A stretch of DNA of 64,000 nucleotides from Bigelowiella natans CCMP2755 (Eukaryota > Protista > Cercozoa): contig ADNK01000640.1 of NCBI GenBank assembly GCA_000320545.1, forward strand, positions 3,693 through 67,692, in the 5' to 3' direction. Positions 18,058-37,773 of the stretch are shown one piece after another. Every line of letters starts with the position of its first letter. Position 1 is the stretch's first letter. Below the pieces are notes generated by a model. That model had not been told where the DNA came from. It made no database searches and saw only the letters and a program-made list of their open reading frames with translations. The translations under genes were made by a program, and so were the position numbers.

Positions 18058-19601
18058 TTAAGAAACAGTTCTTAATATGCACATGCGCGTAAAGTATATT
18101 GCGACTTGACAATATCTGCATTCTTGTATTTGTTGTAATTGTTGTTTTCTTTATTTCATCAGCTTCGATACAATACGAAATAAAATCCTAAAAAGGTTTC
18201 CTAAATTAAAGGTCTTAACTAGGTTTGGTATAATTATGGTGGGTTGACTGTAGTTCTATTTTCTGTTTTACTTTTATTTTTAATCTACAGTGATCTACAA
18301 TGATTCACAGCTATAAACCCGGTCTATATTTCTTTCAAGGGTATTGTTTTTATTGTTGTCTGGTATTATTTTATATTTTTTAAACTAATATTAAAAATGG
18401 AAAGCTATAGTGATATTTCCGAATTTGATAATGAAACTAATTTATCAAACTTCTTCTTAAAATGCGCCATAACTGGAGTGCTTATATTTATCTTCTTTTA
18501 CTCGTATCTATCTCCCTTCATTTATATTTAATCTCGGGTTGGTCAAATTCCCAGAGGCTCTCCTGTGTTTTATATTTCCAATAACTGACCCACAAAAGTC
18601 TCGAGTTGGTCAAATTCTCAGAGACTCTCCTGTGTTTTATATTTCCAGTAACTGGCCCAGAAAAGTCTCGAGTTGGTCAAATTCTCAGAGACTCTCCTGT
18701 GTTTTATATTTCCAATAACTGGCCCACAAAAGTCTCGAGTTGGTCAAATTCTCAGAGACTCTCCTGTGTTTTATATTTCCAGTAACTGGCCCACAAAAGT
18801 CTCGAGTTGGTCAAATTCTCAGAGACTCTCCTGTGTTTTATATTTCCAATATCTGGCCCACAAAAGTCTCGAGTTGGTCAAATTCTCAGAGACTCTCCTG
18901 TGTTAAAAGTGGAATTAGGTAATTCATTCTGGAAACCATCCTAGTGCATCCTGCCCAGTTAAACCGGACCCATTGGACCCATTGGACCCACTTGGACCCA
19001 CTTGGACTCACTTCGAGTTGGTCAAATTCTCAGAGACTCTCCTGTGTTTTATATTTCCAATAACTGGCCCACAAAAGTCTCGAGTTGGTCAAATTCTCAG
19101 AGACTCTCCTGTGTTTTACAAATTAAGTTCAGCCCTACCTTCTACAGAAATAATCACTGCGTAACCAGGGTAGGTTCGTGGGCCAGTTTAAAATTGGAGA
19201 TATGAAACACAGGAGAGTCTCTGGAAATTTGACCAACTCGAGATAATCCTGGGATATATATTATTTTAAGGATAAGTATAAATAAAGACCAATTAATGCA
19301 AAATTATACCCTTTACACGAGTTTTATGTAAAAAGGGATATTTGCGGAATATCGAAATAAGTCAAAATTAAACCCTATAAATACCCATATTAGACAAATA
19401 TTTGAGTTTTATAGTAGATATACTGGGTACGACTCGTATATATAGAAGAAATTATTAGGTTTAGAGAGATAAATACAAAATTACAAGATTTTACAAGACT
19501 TAAAACAAATTACAGAGAAACGAAATGTAAATTTCCAAAAGCAAAATATAGTTGTCGCGGTCGTGAATTATAGACCATGCATATTAAGAACTGTTTCTTA
19601 A
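18058..19601. mobile_element. Non-autonomous TIR element (copy 1, unmutated), ~1.54 kb
   Basis: Perfect 24-bp terminal inverted repeat TTAAGAAACAGTTCTTAATATGCA (18058-18081) / TGCATATTAAGAACTGTTTCTTAA (19578-19601). AT-rich, no credible ORF, internal tandem repeats. Outer TTAA plus GA...TC termini fits a Kolobok-type TTAA target site, but the TTAA may instead be part of the terminal palindrome. Confidence 0.85.
18533..19116 (+). repeat. 67-bp tandem repeat array (~5.5 + ~1.5 copies) split by a ~110-bp insert containing GGACCCA(C)TT mini-repeats
   Basis: Unit CTCGAGTTGGTCAAATTCTCAGAGACTCTCCTGTGTTTTATATTTCCARTAACTGGCCCASAAAAGT recurs every 67 bp (18600, 18667, 18734, 18801, 18868). Confidence 0.92.
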
Positions 19602-19657
19602 CCGCATGACAAGACGACATCACCCCTCGATCCGATCCAGAGAGCATTTAGGAAACG

Positions 19658-20781
19658 ATGTACGACAACATGGAAGTCAACCGAAGCAACAGCAACGCAA
19701 AGAGCCCTACCATGACCTGGGTTTTGTTAGGGTTTGTGGGGTTGTTTTCCATCATTGCTTTGATTATTGCTTCGGTGGCTATGCATAAGGCAGGAAACTG
19801 TTCATGTAACTCCGGCAGCGACACGACATCCATCGACCGCATCTCTGGCTCAACCAGCTTCAACGCATTTACAACCTATTGGGAGGCTTATGATGGTAAT
19901 TCGTATTGAAATTCTCTCGATGAAACGGGGAAATAAACCTCCGATGATAATATTTTTAAACATTATGCTTACCATTTACAAGATACGTGTGTTATAATTT
20001 TTTTGGCATCTCCCCCATCCCCCCATCTCCTGAAGAGGCCAATTGGAAGAAGACTGTGGCCGATGATATAAAATTCGAGATCGATAAGATTCAAGGAAGC
20101 GCACGCACGGGAAAAGACAACGTCTGGAGCTTTCGAATGGGACTTTCTTCCGACCCGAACGGCCAGCTCACTTGGACCAACACGTACGATAGTTATTTCT
20201 ACGATCCCGACCAGAACACTCTTTTGGCGCGAATGATTTCGATCTTGCGCAACACCGGAGAGACGATGCAAGTTGGGTGGTGGACTTGCAAATTCAATTC
20301 TGAAGGCAAGATCTCATCAATGTCCCAGAAGGTAATCTGGGCTAGCTGGCTCGTCGGATACTCCAACCAACAGAGCACTGCGGATAAGATATCAGGCAAA
20401 TATGGTTTCAACGCATTTACGACTGCTTGGGAGAACTATGATGAAACAACTTGGAAGTCGATTGTCGCCGACGATATTAATTTTGGCATCGATCAGATAA
20501 ATAGCAGCTTCATCCAGGGCAAGGAGAATGTATGGGCATTCCGCAAGACCTTGCAAAACGGCACCAACTCTCGGCTTGCGTGGACGAACACTTATTCAAA
20601 CTTCCTTATCGATCCATCCAACTCTTCGATCCTCCATGCACAAATGACCAGCTACATCAAAGCCACGGGCCAGACGATGCAGCTTGGTAAGTGGGTTTGC
20701 GAGTTCAACCAGCAAGGGAGAATTCGCAAAATGCGGCAGAACGTCCTGTGGGCTAGCTGGTTGAACTCAACTTCAAGCTGA
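19658..20781 (+). CDS. Membrane-anchored protein with two tandem SnoaL/NTF2-like domains (one intron ~19896-20035)
   Basis: TM helix WVLLGFVGLFSIIALIIASVAM. Internal duplication: ISGSTSFNAFTTYWEAYD-EANWKKTVADDIKFEID..GKDNVWSFR..WTNTY..GWWTCKFNSEGKI..VIWASWL versus ISGKYGFNAFTTAWENYDETTWKSIVADDINFGID..GKENVWAFR..WTNTY..GKWVCEFNQQGRI..VLWASWL. The fold call rests on the F..AW..D / ADD..F / G...v / f..dGkI pattern. Confidence 0.75.
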
Positions 20782-20925: not shown

Positions 20926-21074
20926 CTAGCTAGGGCTAGAGGGTAGGATGCGCACAATAGACATGTAACTCTTCTCAACCTCATCACGAATTTTCTGAAT
21001 CCTTTCATCATTGAGAAGAAAATCAACGATATCGTTATGACACATCTCATTAGCCCAGTCCAATGCGGTTTGGC
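20926..21074 (-). pseudogene. Orphan 3' exon encoding an ankyrin repeat
   Basis: GQTALDWANEMCHNDIVDFLL matches the ankyrin G.TaLh.A...g...iv..Ll consensus. It follows a TTTTGCACTAG acceptor and no upstream exons are visible before the element at 21292. Confidence 0.55.
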
Positions 21075-21291
21075 CTAGTGCAAAAAGCAAACAACAATTG
21101 CATGGCACAACAGCAGTATCAGCCTACATCATCTAGCCAACAAATCAACCTACCATCGATTTTGCAACCACAAAACACTCAACAAACCTACTAACCACCC
21201 CAAATCCGTTTGTGTGTACTTTTTCTGCTATGCCTAATTCTACTACCACTACTACTGCTACTACTACTACTACTCGTATTACTATCCACTC

Positions 21292-22789
21292 AAAACTCAA
21301 TATTTGTCTAATATGGGTATTTATAGGGTTTAATTTTGACTTATTTCGATGTTCCGCAAATGTCCCTTTTTGCATAAAACTCGTGTAAAGGGTATAATTT
21401 TGCATTAATTGGTCTTCATTTACACTTATCCTTAAAATAATATGTATCCCAGGATTATCTCGAGTTGGTCAAATTTCCAGAGACTCTCCTGTGTTTCATG
21501 TCTCCAATTTTAAACTGGCCCACGAACCTACCCTGGTTACGCAGTGATTGTTTCTGTAGAAGGTAGGGCTGAATTAAATAGTAGGAGGGGGGTATTCATA
21601 TTTCTATACATAAAGGTCTCGAGTTGGTCAAATTTCCAGAGACTCTCCTGTGTTTCATGTCTCCAATTTTAAACTGGCCCACGAACCTACCCTGGTTACG
21701 CAGTGATTATTTCCATGGAAGGTAGGGCTGAACTCAAATGGTAGGAGGGGGGTATTCATATTTCTACACACAAAGGTCTCGAGTTGGTCAAATTTCCAGA
21801 GACTCTCCTGTGTTTCATATCTCCAATTTTAAACTGGCCCACGAACCTACCCTGGTTACGCAGTGATTATTTCTGTAGAAGGTAGGGCTGAACTCAATTT
21901 GTAAAACACAGGAGAGTCTCTGAGAATTTGACCAACTCGAGACTTTTGTGGGCCAGTTATTGGAAATGTAAAACACAGGAGAGTCTCTGAGAATTTGACC
22001 AACTCGAGACTTTTCTGGGCCAGTTACTGGAAACACAAAACACAGGAGAGTCTCTGAGAATTTGACCAACTCGAGACTTTTGTGGGCCAGTTGTTGGAAA
22101 TATAAAACACAGGAGAGTCTCTGAGAATTTGACCAACTCGAGACTTTTCTGGGCCAGTTACTGGAAATATAAAACACAGGAGAGTCTCTGAGAATTTGAC
22201 CAACTCGAGACTTTTGTGGGTCAGTTATTGGAAATACAAAACACAGGAGAGCCTCTGGGAATTTGACCAACCCGAGATGTTGTTAAGTATTGGTCCATGT
22301 TCCGATGTATTTTGATCAAATATAAATGAAGGGAGATAGATGCGAGTAAAAGAAGATAAATATAAGCACTCCAGTTGTGGCGCATTTTGAGAAGAAGTTT
22401 GATAAATTAGTTTCATTGTCAAATTCGGAAATATCACTATAGCTTTCCATTTTTAATGTTAGTTTAAAAAACATAAAATAACACCAGACAACAATGAAAA
22501 CAATACCCTTGAAAGAAATGTAGACCGGGTTTATAGCTGTGAATCATTGTAGATCACTGTGGATTAAAAATGAAAGTAAAACAGAAAATGGAACTACAGT
22601 CAACCCACCATGATCATGCCAAACCTAGTTAAGACCTTCAATTTAGGAAACCTTTTTAGGATTTTATTTCGTATTGTATCGAAGCTGATGAAACAAAGAA
22701 AACAACAATTGCAACAAATACAAGAATGCAGATGTTGTCAAGTCGCAATGTGCTTTGCGCGCATGTGCATGTTAAGAACTGTTTCTTAA
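21292..22789 (-). mobile_element. Inverted, one-end-truncated copy 2 of the TIR element, partially TpA-hypermutated
   Basis: Reverse complement of 18058-19400 with extra ~159-bp units (CTCGAG at 21459, 21618, 21778) and 67-bp units (21903-22275). Terminal palindrome at 22772-22789. The differences from copy 1 that I checked are TA>TG or TA>CA. Confidence 0.88.
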
Positions 22790-23318
22790 CTCGAGGATCT
22801 AAAGCTTGCTCTGCTCAAAGCCATGAAGGAAATTGCAGATCGGAACGACCAAATGAGAAAGAAAAAGACTTGCAACATTCACGTGGTAAACGTGCACGAT
22901 TGTGGAATGAAGTGGAATGAAGTGTTGATCAACATGTTTCATTTGACATGATTGGCACTCGGGTTTGCAATTTTCTTGCAAGTGAGATGTCATGCGCATT
23001 TGTTGCTTTGTTAGTTAGGCAGCACAAAGATGAGTCCATGACAAGGTTGCAAGAGAAGCAGCTCGAAGAGCACAGCATGCAGGTGCAGGTGTTGCAAAAG
23101 CAGCTCGATGCAGCAAGTTCACACAACGAAATTTTGAAAAATGTGCAAATTCCATCATCCCAATTTGATCGAGATTGTGCATGGAGAGAATTCGACATTT
23201 CAATGGGAACAGAAGAGGAAGAAGACAAATTCGACAGTGTTCAAAAAAAAAAATGTCAGTGTCATGATTTTGCAGTGACGTGCACACGCACAAACATCGC
23301 ACAACAAACCACAACAAA

Positions 23319-23576
23319 ATGGACCACATCTGGCATTCTTTGGAGATCATCTCACAACTGTTGATCATCATTGGAGGGTTGAACTGGGGGCTGATCGCCG
23401 TCTACGATCTCGATCTGGTTGCGAGCCTTTTTGGCCCCAAAACTGTCGCAAGCCGTTTGGCATGTGGTTTGGTGGGAATGGGGGCCATGCTCTCGGCTCA
23501 ATTCCTTTTGCTAAAGTTGACAGAGGCCCAAGATTCGACCGTCGTCGAGTCTAGTGAAAGTGAAACGGTGGCATGA
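23319..23576 (+). CDS. DUF378-family small membrane protein (hypermutated)
   Basis: LLIIIGGLNWGLIAVYDLDLVASLFG..SRLACGLVG matches the DUF378 L.IiGglNWGl.g...dlV..lfG...sriiY.lvG consensus, with Cys (TGT) at the conserved Tyr position. Confidence 0.8.
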   Translation: MDHIWHSLEIISQLLIIIGGLNWGLIAVYDLDLVASLFGPKTVASRLACGLVGMGAMLSAQFLLLKLTEAQDSTVVESSESETVA

Positions 23577-23688
23577 GCTAAAATGCGTTTCTTCTTTTGC
23601 ATTGCTAAATGTTTTTTGCCACTTTGCAGTGATCGATGGAGACAGCGATCTGGCCTTTCCTGTTTTGTTTCTGTGCGCGCCTTCCAGA

Positions 23689-26005
23689 CAATGGCCAGTT
23701 CCTCTGCATGTTCGTTCGTGGAAACAATCTGGAATGTGATCGAAAGTGCAAACAAATCAGAAACCATTGGCCTTCGCTCAAAGAAAATGCTAGAACTTTT
23801 CCATTGTTTGGATGAGAATCGTTTGTGGGAAGAACGCGCCAAGGCATGCAGAAAACATGCTCGATTTGAGGACATGGTTGTTCGCAAGATGCCACAGACA
23901 ATGCGACACGAACTGTTTCCCTGCGTCCCTTCCAAAACACAGTGCGAACATCTCAAACTGCAGCACAAATTGGGGACAAAATCAAACAGATGTGAGATGT
24001 TTTTAGAAAGCAAGAATCGATTTTGTTTTGATTCTGTTCCTCTCTTGCAAGGTGTGCGGTCATGTCATTGTCACATTGGGACGGAATCAGTTCATCGCAA
24101 AGTCACGGAGCCTTCATCAAACAAGTGGTTGGATGGCGATCCGTCGAAATTGGTGCTCACCTGTGTTCTCATTGCACAACACATTTTCAAAAATGACGTC
24201 GATTTTTTTTTTTTTTGTGAAAAGAGGACCAAGCTCTGACCCACTCCACCACAAATGTGCACAAACCTCAACCATGGGAACAAGATTGTGTGCTGGATGT
24301 GGACCAGGATCATTGCAAAAATTTGGCCCGACCAATTGAAAAAAAAAATTCCAAATCACTTGGTGAACTGAGTGCAAGACAATGCAATTGCCTCCTTGGT
24401 GAAACTCATCCTGCTGCACTTCATTCCGATCAAAACATTGAGGGATGGGCTGTGATGAGATCAGCCATCGCAAACAAATGCAAAGTGACACAAGATCACG
24501 TTGACGAATTTTGCAAAGGTGATGGAGTCTCAAAACAAGTGAAATCCAATGCAGAAGAAACCGACATGAAGAAACATGGTGGAAATTTCACTTCGAAAGA
24601 ATGGGCTGAACAATCAAAAGTGATGCAAACCCTGACTGACAGAAAATTGGCAAACGATGTAGCAAAACAAGATGAAATCCTTCAAGAAAGAGCAGACATT
24701 GCACTAGCAAGAGAACTTCAACGGAGAGAAGGGAAAATTGAAGAGGAACATGAAGAAAATGATGAAAAAAATCACAGGAACGAAGAATTTCAAAAGACAA
24801 ATTTTCTCTGCTAAACATTTTCATTTCATTTTGTCCCGTGACAAAAGATGGCCCACAGTGTTCCGTTTGCTCAGGCTTGAAGATGCAACAATGGGCACCA
24901 TGTTTCTGCGCTTCATGTGCATTGTCAGAAAACCAGAAAATGGAAAAGCAATGAAGATGAACACGATTGAAAAGCCAAATGCAATGGAGGAAGCCATCAT
25001 GGGCAGACATGAAATGCAGCGCTTCAATGCATCTTTCGATTCACATTTTGACAAGGTCGACAACTGCGAAAAAAAAGAAAGACATTTGTCAGTCTGATTT
25101 GTTTTTGTTTGGGAGCAGCTAGAGCACGGCATCAATTTGGAGGAAGTGCACACACAACATCAATGGAGTTTCAAAACCAGGCGATGGAAGACACCCGGCC
25201 TGGCCACGTGAAAGTGGGCAACGACGCCATCACAATCGTGGCGCATGCGTGTGCATGCGAAACATGCGCAGTGCATGTTGGGAAAGCAAAATTTGACAGC
25301 ATGCTCTCAAATTTGTCACTGCACCATCTTCAAATCATGGGGGCCCACTGCAACATGTTGGCAGGCCACTTGACACAAGGAACCCTTGTCAAGGCGCTCA
25401 TGACCTCCACATGCTTTCACAGTCAGTTTGACACAAGCATGGCTGTGGCCAACCACAAACACTTGGACACAAAAATGAACAACGAAACGGACGTTGATTC
25501 GCAAGTCAAGAAGATGACAGAAGAGATGTCAACGAACGATGGCTCTGGCAGTTCCAGTGTGTCAAATGTTCTGACAAATGCAAACACACAGGAAAGCAAG
25601 TCGGACAACGTTGAACCATTTGGCGCATTTAGCGAGCTAAACCCGTTCACACTGGAGAGCATTTGCGGTCCTAGGTCGATGGCAGCAATGCGCATGATTT
25701 CACAGAAAGTTCCAGGCGTGCACACCGCAGAAATGCTCAAAGAAGAACCAGATCTGCTGGACACATTTGACATTGAACTAGACCCTGTCATCGAGACAGA
25801 GCTTCGTGAAAATGGAGCCCTGAATTTCTCCGAAACCAATGAAAACCACCATGGCGCAAGCAAACTTCCGGCCGCAAAAAAGGTGTTTTCTGATCTCCAT
25901 CGGAATTTGAAGCGCATGACGACCGGGACCCACTTTTCCAGTGCACGCGAAACCACTAGGCTCAAGTGCACACAGAATCACCTAGCCAGTGCAGAAGCCA
26001 AGTGA
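23689..26005 (+). pseudogene. Frameshifted, hypermutated ORF remnants of unknown function (23583-24239, 24257-24814, 24738-25097, 25109-26005)
   Basis: Consecutive + strand ORFs with breaks near homopolymer runs. Protein-like composition but Tyr-free and Cys/His/Met-rich. Confidence 0.45.
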
Positions 26006-28194
26006 CTTTGCGTGTTCTTTGAACTGTTTTTTCTTTGAAAAAAGAAATCTTTTGCAAAACCAAAAGCACCAGAGATCAACGCATTCCTGTTGGCATCAGG
26101 CACTGGCGCCATGATCTGTTTTTGTTGATGGATGTGTCTTTTGCGTTTTTTGCTGCCCCCGCTCATTGTTGACAGTTTGTTTCTTCCAATTTTTTGATTC
26201 TTGTTCATGTTTTTCATGGCCTTTTTTGCTTGGTCCTGTGTCTGTTTGAATTCATCAGCAAACACATCAGAGACCCGCGACCATTCCTCATCTACATCTT
26301 TGGTCAGATTTTTTGCAGATTTGAAGTTCTTTGCGGTGCGAGATGACTCTTTTGTTTTCTCCAACATTTCCCCCAACAGGACCTGCGCTTTTTTCAGCTC
26401 GGCTGTTTCCCCATTTCTGTCGGCATCCTTCTCGCCATCGACCTCCTGGATGGGTTTCTTGCCACAAACAGCTTCGAGGTCTGCCAGGACGTCGCTGAAA
26501 AGTGCAAGCGCATGGAACATCGTCGTGCGTTTTGGCAGAAAGCTTTCGGAGGCAACAAGTCCCTTCAAGGTTTCCTTTGTCCGCCTGGCGATGTGGTGGG
26601 CGTCTTGTTCGCATTTGTTCTCGGTCAAGACGTTCGACATGCTCTCTGGGAGATTGTTGCCCATGAATTTGATGGCGTTCTGCACCACAAGTTCGACCCC
26701 TGCATTGTCAAGCTTTTTGCGCACATCTCTTGCCTTTTTTTTCATCACAATGGTCAGCATGGTTGAAGCGTCCATGTGATCATCGCAGCCAACTAGCATG
26801 ACGTTTTGCGCCTTTTGTGCCATGGAAGCCACCTCACTGAGACAGCTAGCGTCTTCATCATTCGTGACCTTCTCTGCTGTGTCATGCTCTCCTAGTCCCA
26901 GACCTTTCAACTCAATGCTCACATTGCAAACTTCGTCCAGCTCTTTGGCCATGAGAGTTGTTTTGAAGATGAATTCATTGAGCTTTTCGATGGAATCGTC
27001 GCTGGTGAGGCTGTTCTTCCACTCTGCATGACCCACACTCTTTGAAAACTCACACTTTGTGCATGGTTGGGTGATGTTGCGTGAGAATGTTTCGAGCAGA
27101 GGGTTGTCACTCAGTCCCGAGCCCGACACGCGAAATTGGAAGGATGAGGTGGTTTTCAGTTTGCGCTCAAGCTCTTCCATCGTTTTCGCATGTGAGTGTT
27201 GTCAATGCAGGATGAATGGTTTGGCAATCTGCAACCTTCAAAATCGAGGTCAAACGTGAGCTTGTGCAGTCTTTTGTCAGCCATGTCGACTGCCGAATCC
27301 GATTCCTTCATCTCTTTCTTTGAAAAGGTGGAATTCACCATGAAGGGAGAGGCCAGATGCGAAAATGAAGAGAAGTAAGTGGCGCTTTCAAAGAGTTGGA
27401 ACTTGCACAAGTTTTTGTTGTCAAGGTTGGCCTTCCCAGAGTGCCGCAGTCTTGGGTCAGGGACTCCCATGGTGTTCATGTTGAAGATGTTTTCATGTTC
27501 ACGTGCGCAGCTGTTGTGGGATTCATCACACAGCATTGGAGTTTCCAAGTTGGATCCCAGCAACACCATGTTGCCAATTGAATTGCACGTTTCTGCATGT
27601 GAATCATTGCGCAATGTCCCAATTGCGTGCAGGTTGCTTCGAATGTGTTGGTCTTTGCAAAGATTGAGGTCGGGATGAAAGAGCATCATTGGGAGCTTTG
27701 CTTTTGAGGTGTCTCTCCCGAACATTTGATTGCCTTGTGCTCACATGTTCATTCAATTTCCGAATCTTCATGGGATTCTCTCTCCAGGCATCAACGTGAT
27801 CCAGGGTGCCTTCGTTCATGAATTCTGCAAGCTTCACCTTGCCGTCTTCGCACCCAAACGATGAAAGCACTTTGTCAAACATTGTCTCAACACTGTGCTC
27901 ATGCTCGTCGACTTTCTCGTCTTCTCCAGGCCTGCTTTCCGTCTTTTGTTCTTCTTTTTGGTCACCTGTTTGGCATTGCAAGTGAAAAACAGGACGCAAC
28001 AACTTGCAACTGCGTCCACATTTGCCATTGACTGCAGGGGGTCTCCGTGGCACAGGTCTCACAGCCGAATTCGGTGGGATGTTGTGAAACTGTTGCAGCA
28101 GCTCACACTCACAATCCACAATTTCTTGATCAATGTCGTCATTCATCTTTCGCAATTGACAGCAGAAGAGAAGGAGGGGGGTGGGATGTAGCAA
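25978..28194 (-). pseudogene. Hypermutated ORF remnants of unknown function (25978-27180, 27156-27725, 27604-28194), possibly one frameshifted gene
   Basis: Overlapping - strand ORFs. The 400-aa ORF is helical and charged with a KKRKRH NLS-like patch. Tyr is nearly absent. Confidence 0.45.
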
Positions 28195-29146
28195 AAGAAG
28201 TGGATGGAGAGGCTTTTCAGTTCACTCCTGACAATCTTGTTTCGGAATTCTGCAATTTGTGGCATTTGCAGGCACAAAGTCATTGACGCAGGCCCCATTT
28301 CCTTGAGTTCATTTCTGAACATGACAGCAAAAATGAAAAACACATGCTCTTAGCAATGATCAAGCGCAAAATGAAAAAAACAATGCCAGGACATTTGGCG
28401 GACAAATGATTTTCCAAATGTGAAGAAAACATGCAAAAACATCATCCATTTGAAACAAGCACCTGCAAATTGCAGTGAGAATTTTCCATCCTCTGGACTC
28501 CAAGTGCACACACAGTGGCTTCAATTGTGTGCTGAAGTTGCACTCTGTTTTCCATTTTTGGCCCAGAAAGCCTGCATTTTCAAGATGATGCAAACGTCAC
28601 TGGCAAATTGCAGGTAGCTCGGCCACAGCATTGTTCAGTTGCTCACAGCAACAAAGCCAATTTGCATGAAATTGTGCTCCAGAAACGCTTTCCCGCAAGT
28701 GGAGATTTTTGCACAAAATTGGACAGGTTTGGGTCTGCAAATGCAAAAATGGACTGGGATTTGCAATCAAATGTGCATGTGTTTTTTTTTTCCGGAGAGC
28801 ATGCTCACCCAAAGCTCGAATCCCAAATTCCATGCGATCAGAGGAGCAGGCTTTCTGGTAGCAGCCTGCAGCCCAAAGCTTCAATTTGACTTTCTGAATC
28901 CCGATTTCCATCTGAGCAGGTGTGTTGTGAGACGTGGCAGCCAAGTGCTTGGAAAGGAGAATGTGAATCCACGCCCAGCCCAGAAGAGAAGAACGAGTGC
29001 GATTGCCAACATTTCGAGAGAGAAGATGGAAGAACTGCAAAGAATGATGCTCCAGAAACAAGAAGAAAGCGACGAGGAGAGTAGCGAGGACATCGTGGGT
29101 GAGAACTCGCATTTTTTGCAAACATCTGACATCAAACTAAAATGAA

Positions 29147-32100
29147 GTGGTGTTTGTGTCATTTTGCACTGTGGCAGAGGTGATGGAAGGGCAGGACGAA
29201 AAGGCATGTGACAAGATGTTGAACCCATTTGTCGACACCATCCAGATGAAGAGAAATGGGATGATCACGACTTTTGGAATCGACAGCAAGCACAGCGATC
29301 AGACAGAGGACGAGGAAAAATTTGACGCAACCAACAGAAGCCTGAGTGACGTCGCGAGGGATGGCAATTTGGGGGATGTTGTTGAGCATGTGCAAACGAA
29401 CATGTGGAGGCTGCAACGCGAAGAGGCTCTCAATCACACAGAAAGGAAAGACATCGTGGAGACAGCCGTGCGGTGCTTGCAGTTTTCACATGCACACATG
29501 ACGCTTGGCCAGAAAGGCGCAAATCAGAAATGCGGCAGCTTGAACACCACGACCATCGTGGAAGAGCTTTTGCAAACTGACATTGTCGGCTTCGACATGG
29601 AGTTCCTGGCAGGGAATTTCCAGGAGCTCATGGTCTATTTGGTGCAAACATTGTGCTTCCACGACCCGGAAAATGCCCCAAAATGCAGAAACCTTGTGAT
29701 GTTTTTGATCGATGAGGTCGGGCAGAGCTTCGACTTTGCCTGCGCAGTGGAAGAGTTCGAGAATCGCAGAAACAACCATGTAGCCTTCGAAGATTTCTTC
29801 AGTGGAGTTCCTCTAGACAATCAGATGCCCACAGACATTGAAGCCACACGGGTTTGCTGGTCCAACGACAAAGACTACGAGAAGGTGTTTCCAGTGAAGT
29901 CCAGAGCCATGGATGCTGTCATGCATCAACTTGCGCTTCGGAAGTTCAAAACTGACGGACAAGCAACATGCAGACAAGCAGAGGGAATTCACAAGCCGTG
30001 TTGCACGAAAATGAGCCCATCAGTGGGGAATGAAACGTGCTTGGAGAAACGGGGAAGTAGCGAAAAGTCGCACCTCCCCATCAAACAGTGCGTCCACAAT
30101 TGCCCCATCCCAAACCTGGCTTGCCAATCGGTTCTGAACGTCAAGCAACAAGTTGAGGCAATCGAGCAGTGCACAAGGAGAGACACACGACTCTCGACGA
30201 ACACATTTCTTTGTGACTTTGAAGCGAAGGATGCTGATGGGAGAATGACTTCCTACCTCTGCGACGCGCATGGACACGGACTCTGCAAGGGCAGAGAGCA
30301 GTCTTGGTCCTCCGTTGCAAACACTGGTGAGGGAACAGAGCTAAGCGCAAGCGAGTTCGAGGCACAGCGTTTCACAAAGTCGCACCACCACAGCGATTTC
30401 CTTGATCCTCATGGGTGTTGGTTCCATCAGAATGGCAACGGCAATTTTCTGCATTTCATGCTGCGATTCCAGGACACCACAAGCAAAGGCACGGAGTTCG
30501 AGAGAAAGTGCTTTCCATGGAGTCTCGATGAAAATCAGGTGAAATTTCAAAAGAAGCGATGCCAAAAATGGCTGGATCTTGGGTTCAAGGCTAGCAAGAA
30601 GCGTCAGAGCACTGGCAAAATGCTCAACTACAACCCCTTCTTGGTGGAGCTCCATGAGTTTTGTGGGCTAGCAATGCAGATCTCATGCAAGCCCAGAGAC
30701 ATGACCAAGCGAGAGGTGCACACAGCTCACATGGGAGAAGCCGGGTCGGGTGAAACTGCGGTGACGGAACTCCTAGCTCTGATGGGAGGGCCCGACTCTG
30801 TGGTGAAGATTGAATGCGATGACACCGAAAGCACCCTGTCATTTGACGAGCAGGAGTTGCGCAAAGACACGGTGAGAGCAATCGTGTTCGATGAAGCCCA
30901 CAAGGCCGGAGATGAAGTCAGGCAGATGATTCACAAGTTCATTGGCAACGGCGTGGCTTCTTTGAATGCCAAATTTCAGCAGCTTGTGTGCAAAAACATG
31001 GGAGGATTCCGCGTGATTGTGACAATGAACGGGCCAATGAGCGAGGACATGATGTCGAACATCGCCTCTGCTGACCGTCGCATTCTCCCTCGCGCATTTG
31101 CAAGAGGAGCAGTCAAACACGATGATGTGGTTGCCGCGCAAACTTCACGTCATTTCCACCAGAGCGAAAGGTCTGCTTTGAGCAAGCCTGGGTGGCAGTC
31201 AAACCACATGATCCACACTCTTCGCTCACCAAACAATTCCCATTTGTCGTGCACCATGGCTTTCTTTGGGGCAGACGTAGTGAAAAATCTGAAGTCGCAA
31301 CTGGATGACATTGCGCGCCAGCAGTGGCTTCTCGGTCGGACGGTGATGAAAGAGTTCATCGACGAAGGCTACCTGCAGATCTGCCCGCATTGCATCATGC
31401 CTTGCACGAACCTGAAGACCGCCTACGAGCTCTTCATGCAAAGCAGGTGCAGGGTTGGGATGAAGAAGCAGTTTCGGAAACTGAACGAAGAAAACTTTCT
31501 GCTCATCCAGAAGCTCACTGGATGTGGGATGTTCAAATGCCACCCTGATGCCAAGATGCCAGAACACACGCACTTGAAGGGTTCCAACAAATTGGCACTG
31601 GTCAGCGGAATCAACATGCCTGCTCCTGACTCTTCAGCCTGTCGATCTCTACATGCTGTGTGCGGCGAAAAAAACCGCAATGTGAACCCCATCCGAATGA
31701 ATGCTGAAGATGTTCACGATGCCCATGTGGTGGGACTTCGAGTGTCGGAGAAAGGTCTCCTTTCCTTCAAGAACAAAGAGTTCAAGAACGCGGAAAGCAC
31801 TTGCTGCAGCACCACAGATCTTGCGCATTTCGCCAAATTTTGCGCGGTTGTCGATGGCTGTGTTTCCATTGTGGACGACGAGGATTTTTGCTGCGGAAAA
31901 CGATGTGATTTTGATGAAGAAAGAGCATCCAACCCGTCAATGCAGACTGATCATGTGATGAATGTGGAAGAGACAAGGAACGTGAGGGTCATCATTGGCA
32001 TTGCAAATGCAAGTACCATGTGGGCAGAAAATGCAAAGGGAGAGCAGAAACTGTGGGAGCAGGTAAAAAAGCTCCCCAAAAAGTTCCGGATGCGTGAGTT

Positions 32101-32647
32101 CTGTGGGCATCCTCTGAAATTTTCACAGGAAGGCACCGTGCTTGACCGCCCATTGCAAACAGAGACGGTTGTTGTCTCTGAAACTCAAATGTGGGATCGT
32201 TTTGTTCACACTGGCATCCCTAGAAAAGAGCTTGCAAACCAAACTTGGCAAGAGGTCGTCGCTCGCCAAATTTTGGACAAATGTGCAGTTTTTTGTTCCA
32301 CAGAAGATCACCATGGCAACAAGATGATCAGCACACGCTTTGTTTTTCATGACACTGACGACAAGAGTGAAAGGAAAGAAAGCGCACGCCAGAAATTTTT
32401 TGAAGGGCCAGTCCAAGCGCAGCTACACCAACTTTCATGTGTCCTTTGTGCACAGTGGTGGCATCGCTTCAAACACCAGAAAGGCCACAATGACGAGGAA
32501 CGTGCCACATTGAGGAAATTTTGTGCACACGAAAGCACAAGGTTCAAGTTCTCAGACACGTGTTTGCGGAAAACCAATCATTCCATGACGCAAAGTGTGT
32601 TGCATGCAGTCATGTTGACACATTTTCATTGCAACCATGCTTGCTAG
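29147..32647 (+). pseudogene. D5-like superfamily-3 helicase (viral/Polinton-like-virus type), probably inactivated by hypermutation
   Basis: Walker A GEAGSG[E]T (30734-30757), Walker B RAIVFDE, motif C RVIVTMN, arginine-finger DRRILP.F, and a downstream LKTAYELF..G winged-helix-like segment. 1166 codons without introns. Confidence 0.75.
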
Positions 32648-32730
32648 TGCGCGATTTTGCATGCCATGAGATGTCGAAAAGTGCAACCAATGATGATCAT
32701 GATGCTTCTTGCACTTGTCATCGTGACTGG

Positions 32731-32828
32731 AACAATGAACAATGACAACAAACCACATTTCCAAAATGCAACAAGACACTTGCAGTGCACGAAACGCAGT
32801 GCCTCGAGCTAAATCTAGCGAGGTCTAA
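32731..32828 (+). repeat. Dispersed ~100-bp repeat, copy A (Helitron-3'-end-like)
   Basis: AACAATGA..CATTTCCAAAATG..AAGACA.TTGCAGTG..CGAAACGCAGTGCCTCGA..GAGGTCTAA, shared with 49681-49784 and 50151-50250. Confidence 0.7.
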
Positions 32829-32935
32829 TTTTGGGCATGACGCCATGACAATGATGCTGCAACATTGACTAGCAACGTGTGTGCATGCACATGTGTGCAT
32901 GCATGTTGAGCCTAGCTGTTTTGCTACATTGTGCA

Positions 32936-33522
32936 TCACTTTTGGTTGTCGCATGGCAAACATGTAATCGATTTCACAGTTGTGAACTTTGGCACTTTTT
33001 TGAAAAAGTGACTTTCAAAAACCTGAATCTGCTCGACCATTTTGCAACTTTGAGTCATTTTTGTGTCATTGCCACTAGCAAAGGTGCAAAATGACGGCTG
33101 CATTGTCGTCTTTTTTTTTTTTTTGAACTCTTTTCAAAAGGCAGAAATTTGCTAGTTCACTGTTCACCATTCACAACTGTTACCATGACTAGCACGTGTG
33201 ACAAACGTGGCACATTTGCTAGCAAAAATGACAAAAAGTGACACATGTTCAAATTTTTACTAGTGCATCATTCACAAGTGGAGTTGTGAATGGTGAATGG
33301 TGAACTAGCAAATTTCTGCCTTTCAAAAAGAGTTCAAAAAAAAAAAAAACAACAATGTAGCCGTCATTTTGCACCTTCACTAGCAGCAATGACACAAAAA
33401 TGACTCAAAGTTGCAAAATGGTCGAGCAGATTCCAGGTTTTGAAAGTCACTTTTTCAAAAAAGTGCCAAAGTTCACAACTGTGAAATCGATTACATGTTT
33501 GCCATGCGACAACCAAAAGTGA
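32936..33522. repeat. Foldback/MITE-like inverted repeat: ~243-bp arms (32936-33178, 33282-33522) with ~100-bp spacer
   Basis: TCACTTTTGGTTGTCGCATGGCAAACATGTAATCGATTTCACAG... pairs with ...CTGTGAAATCGATTACATGTTTGCCATGCGACAACCAAAAGTGA. Confidence 0.9.
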
Positions 33523-33701
33523 CACATGATTGCACTCAAACAGTTAGGCTCAAAGGCAATGCCCAGAGAAGGAGTTGTTTTTGTGTCATCACTACTAGTC
33601 AAAACAAATTGCAATCTGTGAGACGGATGTGATGAATTGATTGAATCTTTTCAATGGTCATCCTGATGTAGCTTTGCAAAGCAGCGGCTACAGCGCTCAT
33701 G

Positions 33702-34112
33702 TCATGTCCATTTGTCCATTCTGTCACATGTTGCCGCGAATGTGGATTGCAATCTGTCCTTGACCAATTCCCTGATTTTAGCATTTTCTACAAACAACAA
33801 CTTGCTGACATGCACTTGCTTTGTTGCGAAGCGAGCCTTGGACACCTGTACTAGAACGTTTGCCCGAGCAAAACTAGAGTTTCCAATGTGTATGCCTTTG
33901 ATTTCTTCGTCATAGACATCGGAGAAGTCAACATGTCTTGTGATGATTACCTCTGAATGCAGCAATTTATCATCATTTTGGGCGTGTTTCAATTTTTCTT
34001 TTAGTTGCTTGTTTTCGTTTTGAAGATTTTGCACAAGGACATCTTTGAGTACCTTGCATGTAGAGGTAAATAGGGGCGCTGCGTTTTTTATTGTTTTATT
34101 TGCTAAGCTCAT
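33702..34112 (-). CDS. Hypothetical protein with coiled coil (partially mutated)
   Basis: 136-aa ATG-initiated ORF downstream of an AT-rich spacer; coiled-coil segment LVQNLQNENKQLKEKLKH. Confidence 0.45.
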   Translation of the reverse strand: MSLANKTIKNAAPLFTSTCKVLKDVLVQNLQNENKQLKEKLKHAQNDDKLLHSEVIITRHVDFSDVYDEEIKGIHIGNSSFARANVLVQVSKARFATKQVHVSKLLFVENAKIRELVKDRLQSTFAATCDRMDKWT

Positions 34113-34215
34113 ACTTTTATGTTAAATTTACACATTGATGAATTGCAAGTACTGCATAACATATTAAATTTTATATTTTATTATGGAAACTTATGAATAG
34201 CGCATCAAGTATATG

Positions 34216-35325
34216 TCATGGTTTGAGAATAATTTCTGAAAAAGCTTTTACGGGTTTTGTAATACTGATGTAAACTTTATCATCCCGAATTTTGATTTTC
34301 GCGTTGTAATCTTCTTGGTGTTTCTGGGCAAACACTGCCATGTTATCTTTTCCAGTATCTTTTCTTGTTGTGTGGAGATATGCAATTCGACGTTTGCAAT
34401 TTTTGAGTTTGAAGTAAGATTCAGATGAAGAAATGCGGGAATTTGATGGCAACTTATTTATTACTTTCCCCTTATATTCGATTGTATACCCAACTTTAAG
34501 ATTTCTTTTTGTAAACAGTCCGTAACCAGCGTCTTTTATGTGTGAGATTTTGCGATACAAGTGATTAACATCGTTTTTGTATTTTTTGTGATCGAGAAGA
34601 TGAATACTGGAATTGAAATCTATAATCGACTTGACGCCTATGTAGGCATGAAGACACAGTGACAGTTCGTTACTTTTATTAGAACCTCCAGAGTGGAAGA
34701 ATAAAGGGTGCATGAAGTAAACTTTCCCAAGTTCTAATTCCAGATTGACGATCTTATCGATTGGGCAATCTTTTCGATTTATCTTATGTGAACCCGGAAT
34801 GACCCTGATAGTCCTGGCAGTTAAAGGTATTATCACACTACAAAGAACGAGCGTCTTATTGACACTCAAGTAATTTTCATACCCAAGTTCCTTTGCATTT
34901 TCCCTGTCGAAGTCAGTGTGTATTAACTGTTCTTTGCAATTTTTTTCAGTGACAATGATGCTAAGATGCTGGGCCTTGATTGGGTTTGAACAAGAAAGAC
35001 CAACCTTATATCCGTTGAAATGAGCTGTAGCAGCAACTTTTTTGACCATTTCCATGATTTCTTTTGCAGAATTGATACATGTTTCCTTTTCTGATTTTGT
35101 AAAGCCTGGCACCTTTTCTAGGTGTGATAGATAGAATATCAATCGTCTTCCTTTGTAATCTGTTGTTAGGCTGTCTTCTACATCATTCAAAACCGTATTG
35201 AATATAAGGTCACGGTCGTCACTTTTATGCAACTTTTTCGTAAAGTCTTCAATATTCTTTAGATGAAGTTTAGCCGATTCCGGTAAACTTCTATAGGCAA
35301 TTCCGTTAAGTTTCATGTTTTTCAT
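34216..35325 (-). CDS. PhyH-like 2OG-Fe(II) dioxygenase domain fused to a divergent SET domain
   Basis: QLIHTDF (HxD), IRVIPGSHK, GKVYFMHPLFFHSGGSN (distal His). Then SHIKDAGYGLFTKRNLKVGYTIEYKG (SET motif I) and YNAKIK..KVYISITKPVKAFSEII (SET C-terminal). Intronless, AT-rich, unmutated. Confidence 0.78.
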   Translation of the reverse strand: MKNMKLNGIAYRSLPESAKLHLKNIEDFTKKLHKSDDRDLIFNTVLNDVEDSLTTDYKGRRLIFYLSHLEKVPGFTKSEKETCINSAKEIMEMVKKVAATAHFNGYKVGLSCSNPIKAQHLSIIVTEKNCKEQLIHTDFDRENAKELGYENYLSVNKTLVLCSVIIPLTARTIRVIPGSHKINRKDCPIDKIVNLELELGKVYFMHPLFFHSGGSNKSNELSLCLHAYIGVKSIIDFNSSIHLLDHKKYKNDVNHLYRKISHIKDAGYGLFTKRNLKVGYTIEYKGKVINKLPSNSRISSSESYFKLKNCKRRIAYLHTTRKDTGKDNMAVFAQKHQEDYNAKIKIRDDKVYISITKPVKAFSEIILKP

Positions 35326-35682
35326 GGTAATGGGGTTTTTCTTGGTATAACTTCGAGGTTTTTTCCTACTGGGACCGGTCGCATTGACTACATCTTTTGC
35401 CTTATATATTGATGGAAAAGACTGATAAGTAAGTAATACTTTGCAAGATGCATTAAAAGGTATAAATAAATTAGTACCAATGAATAAGAATAAAATTTAA
35501 TTTATCTCATTTTGAGTTGAAGGTAGTATAGTATGACATACAATACTGTCTTGGTCATTATCAGGTAGTGGCCAAAAGCGTTTCCTTATATTCAGAGCAA
35601 ATGTTTGAGCAGCTTCTGTTATCATCTGTGGTCAATGTATGTACAGCAGTTAAATGCCTCCTATGTATAAAACAATATAAAT

Positions 35683-36634
35683 ATAGAAATATGAATACCC
35701 CCCTCCTACTATTTAATTCAGCCCTACCTTCTACAGAAATAATCACTGCGTAACCAGGGTATTAAGGTAGGTTCGTGGGCCAGTTTAAAATTGGAGATAT
35801 GAAACACAGGAGAGTCTCTGGAAATTTGACCAACTCGAGACCTTTATGTATAGAAATATGAATACCCCCCTCCTACTATTTAATTCAGCCCTACCTTCTA
35901 CAGAAATAATGACTGTGTAACCAGGGTAGGTTCGTGGGCCAGTTTAAAATTGGAGATATGAAACACAGGAGAGTCTCTGGAAATTTGACCAACTCGAGAC
36001 CTTTATGTATAGAAATATGAATACCTCCCTCCTACTATTTAATTCAGCCCTACCTTCTACAGAAATAATCACTGCGTGACCAGGGTAGGTTCGTGGGCCA
36101 GTTTAAAATTGGAGATATGAAACACAGGAGAGTCTCTGGAAATTTGACCAACTCGAGACCTTTATGTATAGAAATATGAATACCCCCCTCCTACTATTTA
36201 ATTCAGCCCTACCTTCTACAGAAATAATGACTGTGTAACCAGGGTAGGTTCGTGGGCCAGTTTAAAATTGGAGATATGAAACACAGGAGAGTCTCTGGAA
36301 ATTTGACCAACTCGAGACCTTTATGTATAGAAATATGAATACCTCCCTCCTACTATTTAATTCAGCCCTACCTTCTACAGAAATAATCACTGCGTGACCA
36401 GGGTAGGTTCGTGGGCCAGTTTAAAATTGGAGATATGAAACACAGGAGAGTCTCTGGAAATTTGACCAACTCGAGACCTTTATGTATAGAAATATGAATA
36501 CCCCCCTCCTACTATTTAATTCAGCCCTACCTTCTACAGAAATAATCACTGCGTAACCAGGGTAGGTTCGTGGGCCAGTTTAAAATTGGAGATATGAAAC
36601 ACAGGAGAGTCTCTGGAAATTTGACCAACTCGAG
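35683..36634 (-). repeat. 159-bp tandem repeat, six copies
   Basis: CTCGAG recurs at 35834, 35993, 36152, 36311, 36470, 36629. Each unit contains the reverse complement of the ~36-bp core of the 67-bp repeat. Confidence 0.93.
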
Positions 36635-36991
36635 ATAGTCCTGGGATATATATTATTTTAGGGATAAGTATAAATAAAGACCAATTAATGCAAAATTATA
36701 CCCTTTACACGAGTTTTATGTAAAAAGGGATATTTGCGGAATATCGAAATAAGTCAAAATTAAACCCTATAAATACCCATATTAGACAAATATTTGAGTT
36801 TTATGGTAGATATACTGGGTACGACTCGTATATATAGAAGAAATTATGAGGTTTAGAGAGATAAATACAAAATTACAAGATTTTACAAGACTTAAAACAA
36901 ATACAGAGAAACGAAATGTAAATTTCCAAAAGCAAAATATAGTTGTCGCGGTCGTGAATTATAGACCGTGCATATTAAGAAACAGTTCTTA
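36530..36991 (+). mobile_element. Right terminus of the element family (copy 3)
   Basis: Near-identical to 19140-19601; ends GCATATTAAGAAACAGTTCTTA. Confidence 0.88.
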
Positions 36992-37773
36992 TTATCAACT
37001 AAAGTACAGCTTGTCGCGGAGTGTGAACCGCATGTATTTTTGCTCTCATACCATTGGCCGTTACTGTCAAAATATGTAGTTCATAATTCGATTGTCGCGC
37101 AGGGAAAGTCCTCGTGGCTATGACGCCTGAGGGCATCCCGAATCTCCGACAGAATCTAGGCAAAAAATACAGGACATTTCTCATGGACGGCAACGAGCGT
37201 TTTGCTCTCAACCAGATCGCTCATTTTGACGAGGAGACATCTACGTGACACATCATGCGTTACCTTGAGTTACTTGTAGATCTACCGCCAAAAAACTCGA
37301 AATAACTCCCAACCCGAAACCTGGGGAGAACAATTTCGGCAAAGACCTCATCGCAATGAGGTAGATCTAATAACAGCAGTGTAGATGTTCAGCTCGCCCC
37401 CCATTGCTGCCCAGTGCCACTCATAGTTCATAGTTTACCATTTTGAACTCCATGGAATTCAAAGCTTCGCTGTAGACATTTTTTAGGCGTACCCCGAAGC
37501 GTTGGGGTTGCGCTGCTCATCTTGCGATCTCACGAGGCGCAATTTTGAGCAACGGAAAGAGGAAGGAGGAGGGGAACTAATTGGTCGGGAGGAGAGGGAA
37601 GTTGCGTCATTTACCTAAATTTTCTGTTTCGTTTTTCCATAACCTATCCGACAAGGAAAGCCAGGGTTATTGATTTCTACGACGAATGATCGCCCTCTCG
37701 CCATACGGTGGAGCTATCCTATTCACGTAAGAGCAACGGGGAAGGCGAAGGCAGTAGCAGGATCAGCGACAGA

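What the first reader, a model, noticed from the sequence alone, without database searches (positions are those of the whole stretch)
21292..36991. Unclassified ~15.7-kb virus-like or composite element with SF3 helicase and no recognisable transposase, polymerase or capsid
Seen: long inverted arms with tandem repeats enclose intronless genes: DUF378, a large D5-like helicase, a 2OG-SET fusion and several unknown ORFs. A 1.5-kb relative with the same ends sits 1.7 kb away. The left arm is itself an almost complete inverted mini-element with its own terminal palindrome facing inward (22772-22789), like an IS flanking a composite transposon. Established: Polinton-like viruses and virophages are of this size with TIRs and often SF3 helicases; KolobokP elements are composite-like with TTAA targets. 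Inference: a new element family, or a transposon that captured viral DNA. Hallmark genes may be hidden by hypermutation.
Basis: partly seen in the sequence, partly recalled or inferred. Interest (0 to 1): 0.8.

Follow-up and report, generated by a model that had tools for sequence, protein, structure and literature searches.

The report
Dead helicase element in algal genome

Summary
The structure is real, but it is one locus, not a shown family. The host is Bigelowiella natans. The inverted arms, the 1.5-kb relative and the inward-facing palindrome are confirmed. 'Intronless' is wrong: RNA contigs skip four GT-AG introns in the interior. Short-read contigs show no second copy of the interior and no arm end on a new flank. 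The helicase is D5-like SF3 with Glu in place of the Walker A lysine. Its only relatives found are two intact-looking proteins at 23% identity, one on B. natans scaffold 10. No capsid, packaging ATPase, integrase or transposase was detected, by weak tests. The interior is nearly stripped of TpA, a process reported in a 2026 preprint and noted by this scan on other DNA of this genome. The locus adds a paired control: the left arm has 24 of 59 TpA sites changed and no other difference from its twin 4 kb away, which has none. Best reading: a decayed virus-derived TIR element with local end duplications (0.5). Main rival: small TTAA-type transposon ends nested round older foreign DNA (0.3).

The parts
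18058..19601 (+). 1.5-kb module M: 24-bp terminal inverted repeat including TTAA at both ends, unique left part 'a' (to 18530), 67-bp array, 10-bp array, partial 159-bp unit, unique right part 'b'; unmutated at TpA; 34.5% GC
18058..18075 (.). Palindrome P1 (7-bp arms, centre ACAG)
   Evidence: junction spanned by a contig of X5
19584..19601 (.). Palindrome P2 (centre CTGT)
   Evidence: spanned by contigs of X5, X7, X14
19658..20781 (+). Expressed one-intron gene with a weak SnoaL/NTF2-like hit, host-like GC (46%), lying between M and the left arm; probably not part of the element
   Evidence: (E 5.5e-4, below cut-off); no viral or prokaryotic relative found
21292..22789 (-). Left arm M2: inverted copy of M, truncated at the b end; 42 of 136 TpA sites changed relative to M or the right arm, more near the interior
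22772..22789 (.). Palindrome P3 facing inward (centre CTGT)
   Evidence: spanned by a 10.1-kb contig of X5 and a 10.1-kb contig of X7
22790..33900 (.). TpA-stripped core: 81 TpA left in 11.1 kb, 30 of them CTAG; 46.5% GC now, about 38-41% before mutation (estimate)
23319..23576 (+). DUF378 membrane protein gene, inside a weakly expressed transcript (23018-24898) with three introns
25052..26005 (+). Open frame of 317 aa, no family assigned
25978..28221 (-). Run of three open frames (407, 194, 205 aa) pointing away from the helicase; possibly one multi-exon gene (inferred); no family assigned; no RNA cover
28801..32647 (+). D5-like SF3 helicase gene (public model Bigna1/70503, 1255 aa); Walker A lysine position reads Glu at 30752; Tyr 0.5%; no RNA cover
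32730..32830 (.). High-copy short host repeat, itself TpA-mutated here; two more copies in the window near 49.7 and 50.2 kb
32906..33553 (.). Fold-back (long inverted repeat) insert with at least one other genomic copy
33608..33702 (.). Very high-copy short host repeat
34216..35325 (-). Expressed 2OG-like plus degenerate SET-like gene (369 aa), almost unmutated; one upstream intron at 35399-35477; one Tyr-to-Cys TpA-type change against a public allele
35682..36992 (+). Right arm R: six 159-bp units, part b and palindrome P4; 1 of 52 TpA changed, 4 other substitutions and 1 gap against M
36975..36992 (.). Palindrome P4: centre ACAG (flipped relative to P2) and last base T
   Evidence: spanned by contigs of X5 and X14

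Best explanation
This is an AT-rich, roughly 16-kb island between inverted tandem-repeat arms in the Bigelowiella natans nuclear genome, seen only at this locus, and it is likely the dead remains of one virus-derived linear mobile element of the Polinton-like/virophage type whose D5-like helicase was likely disabled by the host's TpA mutator. Steps: (1, inferred) a linear element with long terminal repeats (part b plus 159-bp arrays) inserted once; (2, inferred) it stayed in the nucleus long enough to have spliced genes and to collect host repeats at 32.7-33.7 kb; (3, shown as structure, inferred as event) its left 1.5-kb end module, bounded by the same palindrome at both ends, was copied next door as M, and the left outer end was deleted; (4, shown) after that duplication TpA-to-TpG/CpA changes saturated the 11-kb core and spread with falling density into the left arm, while M, the right arm and the expressed 2OG-SET gene were nearly spared; (5, inferred) the copy can no longer replicate or move. 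How it originally integrated is not shown; a recombinase or transposase supplied from a gene now unrecognisable, or in trans, is assumed.
For: Host identity. GC 34-38% in arms and right end, about 38-41% estimated for the core before mutation, against 46-47% in the flanks. D5-like assignment: the unmutated relative P0003 (E 1e-14 over query 495-1142) gives DUF5906/Pox_D5/D5_N clusters at 0.94-0.96 with 10 of 10 best hits in one family or clan; Walker A, Walker B and motif C positions align. Size and TIR length fall in the range given for integrated virophages (5.5-21.5 kb, TIRs 0.2-2.3 kb; PMC8547959). B. natans is known to carry integrated virophage, PLV and giant-virus DNA, and such DNA is the reported target of the TpA process. 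One locus only: unbranched 10.1-kb contigs with 0 differences over the core at flank-level depth (a like contig), and the unique arm part resolves into exactly two contigs, mutated and unmutated, in 2 of 2 DNA runs. Mutation: 24 of 59 TpA changed in M2, 0 reverse, 0 other substitutions in 473 columns; 14 of 28 nearest the core falling to 7 of 30 at the far end; 23 of 449 helicase mismatches to P0005 fit the TpA rule against 9 for a control rule, the Walker A lysine among them.
Against: No capsid, packaging ATPase, integrase or polymerase was found in 57 of 108 interior ORFs scanned with Pfam, 13 with PHROGs or 12 with NCBIfam (interior ORFs and gene models). Spliced introns are unlike described integrated virophages, whose genes have none. 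No relative of the helicase, the 2OG-SET protein or the ends was found in viral contigs or metagenome contigs, and the one DUF378 hit is weak (48% over 39 residues), so the viral origin rests on one protein family that also occurs in phages and bacterial elements. The 2OG-SET gene has a near-identical allele in a public contig and 95-98% relatives in a marine metatranscriptome, so it may be an ordinary B. natans gene or a widespread insertion. The 1.5-kb module has transposon-like ends that this model explains only as a secondary feature. The ends of the 15.7-kb unit do not match and have no target duplication.
Confidence: 0.5

Rival explanations
1. M is a non-autonomous cut-and-paste transposon with Kolobok-type ends. 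Three local copies (one whole, two partial), made by local hopping or aberrant transposition, happen to bracket an older patch of foreign-derived genes, so the 15.7-kb unit never moved as one piece.
For: M has TTAA at both ends, 5'-GA...TC-3' termini and a 20-bp TIR inside them, with a 67-bp core repeated in opposite orientations in its two halves; TTAA plus RR..YY is the Kolobok signature (PMC9587614). M2 has its own TTAA end facing inward. M2 is young (0 non-TpA substitutions in 639 unique columns against M) and is far less mutated (41% of TpA in part a) than the core beside it. The interior is patchy, with introns and host repeats.
Against: All copies lie within 19 kb and none was seen elsewhere: of 13 loose ends shown (7 more not shown), none joins an arm end to a new flank. 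No parent transposase was found. The right end has a flipped centre and TTAT, which a plain TIR and TTAA duplication would not give. The TTAA is also part of the palindrome, so it is weak evidence of a target duplication. The lower mutation of M2 fits a fading domain edge as well, since the right edge of the core also fades inside a gene.
Confidence: 0.3
2. The real unit is 18058-36992 (18.9 kb): a circular or hairpin-ended replicon whose palindrome is a recombination or resolution site. P1 and P4 are directly oriented, and joining the b end of R to the a end of M gives a 32-bp site with perfect 14-bp arms round a 4-base centre (or 13-6-13, as in simple tyrosine-recombinase sites); flip and flop centres are also what hairpin-ended viral genomes show.
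For: Centres read ACAG at P1 and P4 and CTGT at P2 and P3. The last 14 bases of b in R are the exact reverse complement of the first 14 of a (sequence). Tandem arrays next to an AT-rich terminal hairpin plus a D5 helicase recall poxvirus-like ends (recalled, not tested).
Against: P2 is then the odd site out; three different outer flanks carry the full 7-bp arm, which needs four look-alike targets under a recombinase model. No recombinase or resolvase gene was detected. The gene between M and M2 has host-like GC. The palindromes are short and fold only modestly (z -0.7 to -2.8). A 4-base loop can flip by template switching (general knowledge).
Confidence: 0.12
3. No mobile element: lineage-specific host or transferred genes plus local inverted duplications of an AT-rich bidirectional promoter region, or a mis-assembly.
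For: RNA contigs begin about 40 bp from P1 and about 12 bp from P2, pointing away from M; genes have introns; everything is confined to one locus.
Against: All four palindrome junctions and both versions of part a are present in independent short-read contigs, so the pieces are real (only the orientation across the long repeats is untested). A 24-bp inverted repeat at both ends of M, inverted subterminal repeats, a D5-like helicase and selective TpA stripping are not features of ordinary host promoters.
Confidence: 0.08

Closest known systems
TpA hypermutation of integrated viral DNA in Bigelowiella natans (Mettrop et al., bioRxiv 10.64898/2026.01.13.699255; parts 1-3 of 5 read, supplements closed)
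   Same: Same species, same change (TpA to TpG/CpA), foreign-looking target, multi-kb cluster.
   Different: The main text does not mention scaffold 12, a helicase or inverted repeats; its cluster table could list this region. This locus is near saturation (o/e about 0.05 against 0.45 for their giant-virus region) and gives a mutated/unmutated pair of copies and a gradient.
Integrated virophages and Polinton-like viruses (EMALEs, PMC8547959, passages read; B. natans provirophages, Blanc et al. 2015, not held, known only through citing papers)
   Same: Size, long inverted ends, low GC against the host, helicase of the SF3/D5 type, targeted by the host mutator.
   Different: No capsid, ATPase, protease or integrase detected; spliced introns; an inner end-palindrome; no target duplication; seen once.
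PLV-Bnat, the former B. natans 'transpovirons' (PMC5499653, passages read)
   Same: Same host, linear TIR-bounded architecture.
   Different: They are defined by a Tlr1-like SF1 helicase fused to an inactivated polymerase plus MCP, mCP and A32 ATPase; this locus has an SF3/D5-like helicase and none of those detected.
Kolobok and KolobokP DNA transposons (PMC9587614, Background section and passages read)
   Same: M has TTAA flanks and RR..YY termini; a module with its own TIRs occurs both solo and at the edge of a larger unit.
   Different: KolobokP modules are direct repeats, found in animals, round a DDE transposase and His-Me nuclease; here they are inverted and incomplete, longer, with tandem arrays, and no transposase was detected.
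Fungal repeat-induced point mutation (RIP) (general knowledge; named in the preprint's discussion)
   Same: Dinucleotide-specific hypermutation of invading DNA.
   Different: Opposite chemistry (A/T to G/C), and here only one of two near-identical copies 4 kb apart was hit, whereas RIP is recalled to hit both.

Membership tests
Polinton-like virus / virophage | Double jelly-roll major capsid protein and minor capsid protein | tested here: inconclusive
   No hit in Pfam (57 of 108 interior ORFs), PHROGs, NCBIfam; these libraries also missed the unmutated helicase P0005, so they are weak here; no usable fold was obtained for any unknown ORF
Polinton-like virus / virophage | A32/FtsK-like packaging ATPase | tested here: inconclusive
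   Same scans, no hit; hypermutation lowers sensitivity
Polinton-like virus / virophage | Integrase (rve or tyrosine recombinase) or pPolB | tested here: inconclusive
   No hit
Polinton-like virus / virophage | Linear 5-40 kb genome with terminal inverted repeats | tested here: met
   15.7 kb; 608-column inverted match at 95.7%; left end truncated
Polinton-like virus / virophage | Compact intronless genes (as in EMALEs) | tested here: not met
   Four spliced segments in the interior against none in EMALE genes; later intron gain or cryptic splicing after mutation not excluded
Polinton-like virus / virophage | Target site duplication at both ends | not testable with these tools
   Left outer end is deleted; no empty site available
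PLV-Bnat / transpoviron | Tlr1-like SF1 helicase fused to inactivated pPolB | tested here: not met
   Helicase is D5-like SF3; SF1 fusion is the stated hallmark
KolobokP | Long terminal DIRECT repeats, each with its own TIRs | tested here: not met
   Arms are inverted and neither is complete; an inversion through the 159-bp arrays could in principle convert part of the layout, untested
KolobokP | DDE transposase and His-Me finger nuclease in the interior | tested here: inconclusive
   No hit
Kolobok (module M only) | TTAA flanks and 5'-RR..YY-3' termini with TIRs | tested here: met
   TTAA|GA...TC|TTAA with 20-bp TIR; TTAA is part of the palindrome, so duplication is not proven
Kolobok (module M only) | Dispersed copies or an autonomous parent with a Kolobok transposase | tested here: not met
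   Two versions of part a only, no new flanks among 13 of 20 loose ends shown; strongly diverged copies could be missed
TpA-hypermutated foreign DNA of B. natans | Directional TpA to TpG/CpA change, TpA depletion with TpG/CpA excess over several kb | tested here: met

The most novel reading that the evidence does not exclude
Chlorarachniophytes carry an undescribed family of capsid-less, intron-containing linear DNA elements that replicate with their own divergent D5-like helicase (with a shared C-terminal extension of about 400 residues found nowhere else in these searches) and end in short palindromic hairpin or recombination sites; this locus is a mutator-killed member, the 1.5-kb module is its minimal cis-acting unit, and the scaffold 10 gene belongs to a living member.
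Probability: 0.2. Interest if true: 0.75.

Novelty: new variant of a known kind. Interest (0 to 1): 0.42.

Why it matters
As it stands the locus is a decayed foreign insert in a genome known to hold many, hit by a process already in a preprint. It adds two useful things. First, a natural paired control for the unknown TpA mutator: one copy has 41% of its TpA sites changed and nothing else, its twin 4 kb away has none, and the density falls with distance from the saturated core. That points to a mechanism limited to a chromosomal domain rather than one that pairs repeats, and gives a defined place to look for the boundary marks. Second, a very divergent D5-like helicase lineage found so far in only three sequences; if its intact member sits in a similar arm-bounded unit, B. 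natans has a fourth kind of virus-like element besides giant-virus, virophage and PLV inserts.

Tried and rejected
No whole genome is held, so copy number rests on short-read contigs. Structure prediction failed for both proteins tried (P0003 with a 2-sequence alignment, pLDDT 30; the 2OG-SET protein alone, pLDDT 36); the fold search on the second gave nothing at E below 0.001; neither says anything about the folds. ESM Atlas gave no usable hit for the 407-aa ORF. PDB sequence searches: nothing significant, including a stretch with a motif that looked like a 3'-5' exonuclease motif (recalled), so that idea is dropped. Viral contigs: no relative of P0003, P0005, their alignment, the 2OG-SET protein or the SnoaL-like protein; one weak DUF378 hit. 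Metagenome contigs: no helicase relative; 11 matches to the end pattern and 1 viral match share nothing else with the element by blastn or tblastx and are treated as chance. Phage and plasmid collections: no match. Prokaryote genomes: no SnoaL-like relative. Rfam: 0 matches. Weak Pfam, PHROG and NCBIfam hits on unknown ORFs (RNB, NifH, zf-TRM13 and others) are below cut-off and ignored. Runs X22 and X23 gave one contig each on the neighbouring host gene and no empty site. P0005 and P0003 show no directional TpA signature against each other (10 vs 11), so neither is a mutated copy of the other. Similarities between outer flanks of the palindromes were mostly at chance level. The scan's earlier notes held nothing near or like this locus.

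Full report
HOST AND SETTING. The large ORF at 29141-32647 is identical to the public protein jgi/Bigna1/70503 (fgenesh1_pg.12), so the window is from the chlorarachniophyte alga Bigelowiella natans, by that label scaffold 12. No whole genome is held. Fourteen DNA-type runs of one organism hold 96-97% of the sampled words of 26000-35650; four probable RNA runs hold 18% and two marine metatranscriptomes 6%.

ANATOMY. Four copies of an 18-bp palindrome (7-bp arms, 4-base centre) lie at 18058, 19584, 22772 and 36975; 0 of 100 shuffles give four. Between the first two is module M (1,544 bp): unique part a, a 67-bp array, a short insert with 10-bp repeats, a partial 159-bp unit, unique part b. Its two ends share a 24-bp inverted repeat that begins with TTAA. 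The left arm (21292-22789) is an inverted copy of M with 35 extra bases, three 159-bp units, and the last part of b missing; it stops at a (CTA)n run. The right arm (35682-36992) is six 159-bp units plus the whole of b and a palindrome whose centre is flipped relative to M's and whose last base differs. The inverted match between the two arms is 608 columns at 95.7%. All four palindrome junctions are spanned by short-read contigs. The junction of the interior with the right arm is passed by only 13 bases, and the orientation of the interior across the repeats is not tested.

COPY NUMBER. In run X5 the core 22664-32777 is one 10,114-bp contig with 0 differences at depth 67, and 33675-35695 one contig at 70, against 67-74 for the flanks; X7 has a like 10,096-bp contig. 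In 2 of 2 DNA runs the unique part a (18178-18316) resolves into exactly two contigs, one identical to M and one with the 7 changes of M2. Of the 20 loose ends, 13 were shown; those at arm ends match junctions already in the window, and none joins an arm end to a new flank. The tool warns that contig depth is not a copy number and that records are filtered, and copies below about 80-85% identity would be missed. Within those limits, interior and arms occur only here.

GENES. DUF378 is solid (E 4e-15). The 2OG-like and SET-like hits are just under Pfam's cut-offs; the HxD...H metal motif is visible and the SET part lacks its usual terminal residues (motifs recalled). The helicase has no Pfam hit as a whole (AAA_5 at E 0.013 on a piece). 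A full HMMER search found one relative, P0003 (699 aa, 24%, E 1e-14), and the two-sequence profile found P0005, Bigna1/69888 on scaffold 10 (874 aa, 88% to P0003, 23% to this protein). Both have an intact GTGKS Walker A and normal Tyr content (4.3-4.5% against 0.5% here). ESM Atlas places P0003 with DUF5906/Pox_D5/D5_N clusters at 0.94-0.96. Homology runs about 650 residues, well past the ATPase domain. The D5-like SF3 call is therefore supported. Pfam scans of 57 of the 108 ORFs of 60 aa or more in 22790-35700, PHROG scans of 13 interior ORFs and NCBIfam scans of 12 interior ORFs and gene models found no capsid, packaging ATPase, polymerase, integrase or transposase. These libraries also missed unmutated P0005, and both fold predictions failed, so absence is not established. 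The genes are not intronless: contigs of X15 skip GT-AG segments at 23566-23629, 23991-24052, 24151-24224 and, on the minus strand, 35399-35477; a fifth lies in the left arm (21390-21452). Each rests on one contig of one run, one also on 2 raw reads; cryptic splicing in mutated DNA is possible for the first three. RNA covers 22.2-24.9 kb and 33.8-35.4 kb; 24.9-32.2 kb, including the helicase, has no X15 cover and at most 0.33 reads in a 6% sample of X21 (a weak negative). Two high-copy host repeats and a fold-back element lie at 32.7-33.7 kb and are themselves TpA-mutated. The 2OG-SET protein differs by one residue (Tyr to Cys, TpA type) from a public allele and has 95-98% relatives in a marine metatranscriptome.

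HYPERMUTATION. TpA observed/expected is 0.01-0.27 per kb over 23001-34000 against mostly 0.5-1.1 elsewhere; 81 TpA remain in 11.1 kb, 30 as CTAG and none as TTAA, ATAT, ATAA or TTAT. Against M, part a of the left arm has 24 of 59 TpA changed to TpG or CpA, 0 in reverse and 0 other substitutions in 473 columns; part b has 6 of 26 and 0 others in 166 columns. In 250-bp bins moving away from the core the counts are 14/28, 10/31, 2/9, 3/14, 6/24, 7/30 (the 159-bp part compared with the right arm). The right arm has 1 of 52, plus 4 other substitutions and 1 gap against M. In the helicase 23 of 449 mismatches to P0005 fit the rule against 9 for a control rule, including the Walker A lysine. This is the process reported by Mettrop et al. 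(bioRxiv 10.64898/2026.01.13.699255; parts 1-3 of 5 read) and noted by this scan on other pieces of this genome, including the sparing of CTAG. Using their counts (211 changes, 6,169 TpA, 3,132 generations), 41% loss would take about 48,000 generations if the mutator ran at that rate throughout, a span in which 0.02 ordinary substitutions are expected in 639 columns, in line with the 0 seen; M and R would have parted about 1.7e7 generations ago at the background rate (rough inference). The preprint already notes that its main target is single-copy; the pair here adds that an almost identical copy 4 kb away is untouched and that the effect fades with distance.

MECHANISM. Best reading (0.5): one virus-derived linear element with long inverted ends and a D5-like helicase inserted once, aged in the nucleus, had its left end module duplicated next door and its left tip deleted, and was then inactivated by the TpA process. 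Shown: structure, one-locus occurrence within the limits above, D5-like helicase, broken Walker A, direction and gradient of mutation. Inferred: viral origin, movement as a unit, order of events, loss of function. Rival 1 (0.3): M is a Kolobok-like non-autonomous transposon (TTAA flanks, RR..YY ends; PMC9587614) whose local copies bracket older foreign DNA. Rival 2 (0.12): the palindrome is a recombination or hairpin-resolution site of an 18.9-kb replicon. Rival 3 (0.08): host genes plus local duplication.

COMPARISON AND NOVELTY. It is not a PLV-Bnat or transpoviron (SF1 helicase fusion; PMC5499653, passages) and not a KolobokP (direct modules). It resembles integrated virophages and PLVs in size, ends and composition (PMC8547959, passages) but fails their intronless pattern and has no detected morphogenesis genes, so I do not file it as a member. 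Paper searches listed no description of this locus or of this helicase lineage, and the preprint's main text has no mention of scaffold 12, helicase or inverted repeats. But Blanc et al. 2015 is not held, the preprint's supplements are closed, and the supplement of the ChlorV paper (PMC13196603, passages read) could not be read; any of these may list the region. PMC7909515 (passages) reports 35 putative viral regions in this genome without naming this one; PMC6905037 and PMC5127031 (passages) and a supplement search of PMC5294986 added nothing.

VERDICT. A real, decayed, apparently one-off foreign element in a genome where such inserts and their hypermutation are already known. New variant of a known kind; interest 0.42. 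The open lead is the intact-looking helicase on scaffold 10, whose neighbourhood decides whether an undescribed element family exists (probability 0.2, interest 0.75 if so).

Noticed in passing
window 49001-50300 and 56001-57000: Two more TpA-depleted patches (o/e 0.18 and 0.22); the first holds a (GAACAAT)n array and two copies of the repeat seen at 32730-32830.
   Followed up: partly
window 33608-33702: Very high-copy short repeat present at the ends of many RNA contigs; 52 raw RNA reads carry a poly(A) tail after 33660. It may be a SINE-like or 3'-end element.
   Followed up: no
window 34211 (run X19): In a marine metatranscriptome contig of the 2OG-SET relative, that same repeat, in unmutated form, directly follows the gene end, without the 0.5 kb that lies between them here.
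   Followed up: no
window 20335-20940: The SnoaL-like gene has a second, partial copy elsewhere in the genome with many A-to-G and T-to-C changes and indels.
   Followed up: partly
window 18018 and 19613: RNA contigs of the two genes flanking M begin about 40 bp and 12 bp outside its end palindromes and point away from it, and another crosses the inner palindrome (22242-22885), so the module's ends may act as outward promoters.
   Followed up: no
window 36934-36959 and 37001-37027: A 27-column imperfect direct repeat straddles the right palindrome (15 of 1000 shuffles score as well), and AACCGCATG follows both P2 and, 40 bp later, P4; unexplained, possibly chance.
   Followed up: partly
window 19592-19624: A 33-bp stretch covering half of P2 and its flank matches a contig from another locus with different sequence on both sides in 2 of 2 DNA runs.
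   Followed up: no
window 21000-21130 and 21240-21274: A moderately repeated element and a (CTA)n run sit at the truncation point of the left arm.
   Followed up: no
window 58799-59789: Two adjacent ORFs read like a spliced chromodomain protein (motif recalled).
   Followed up: no
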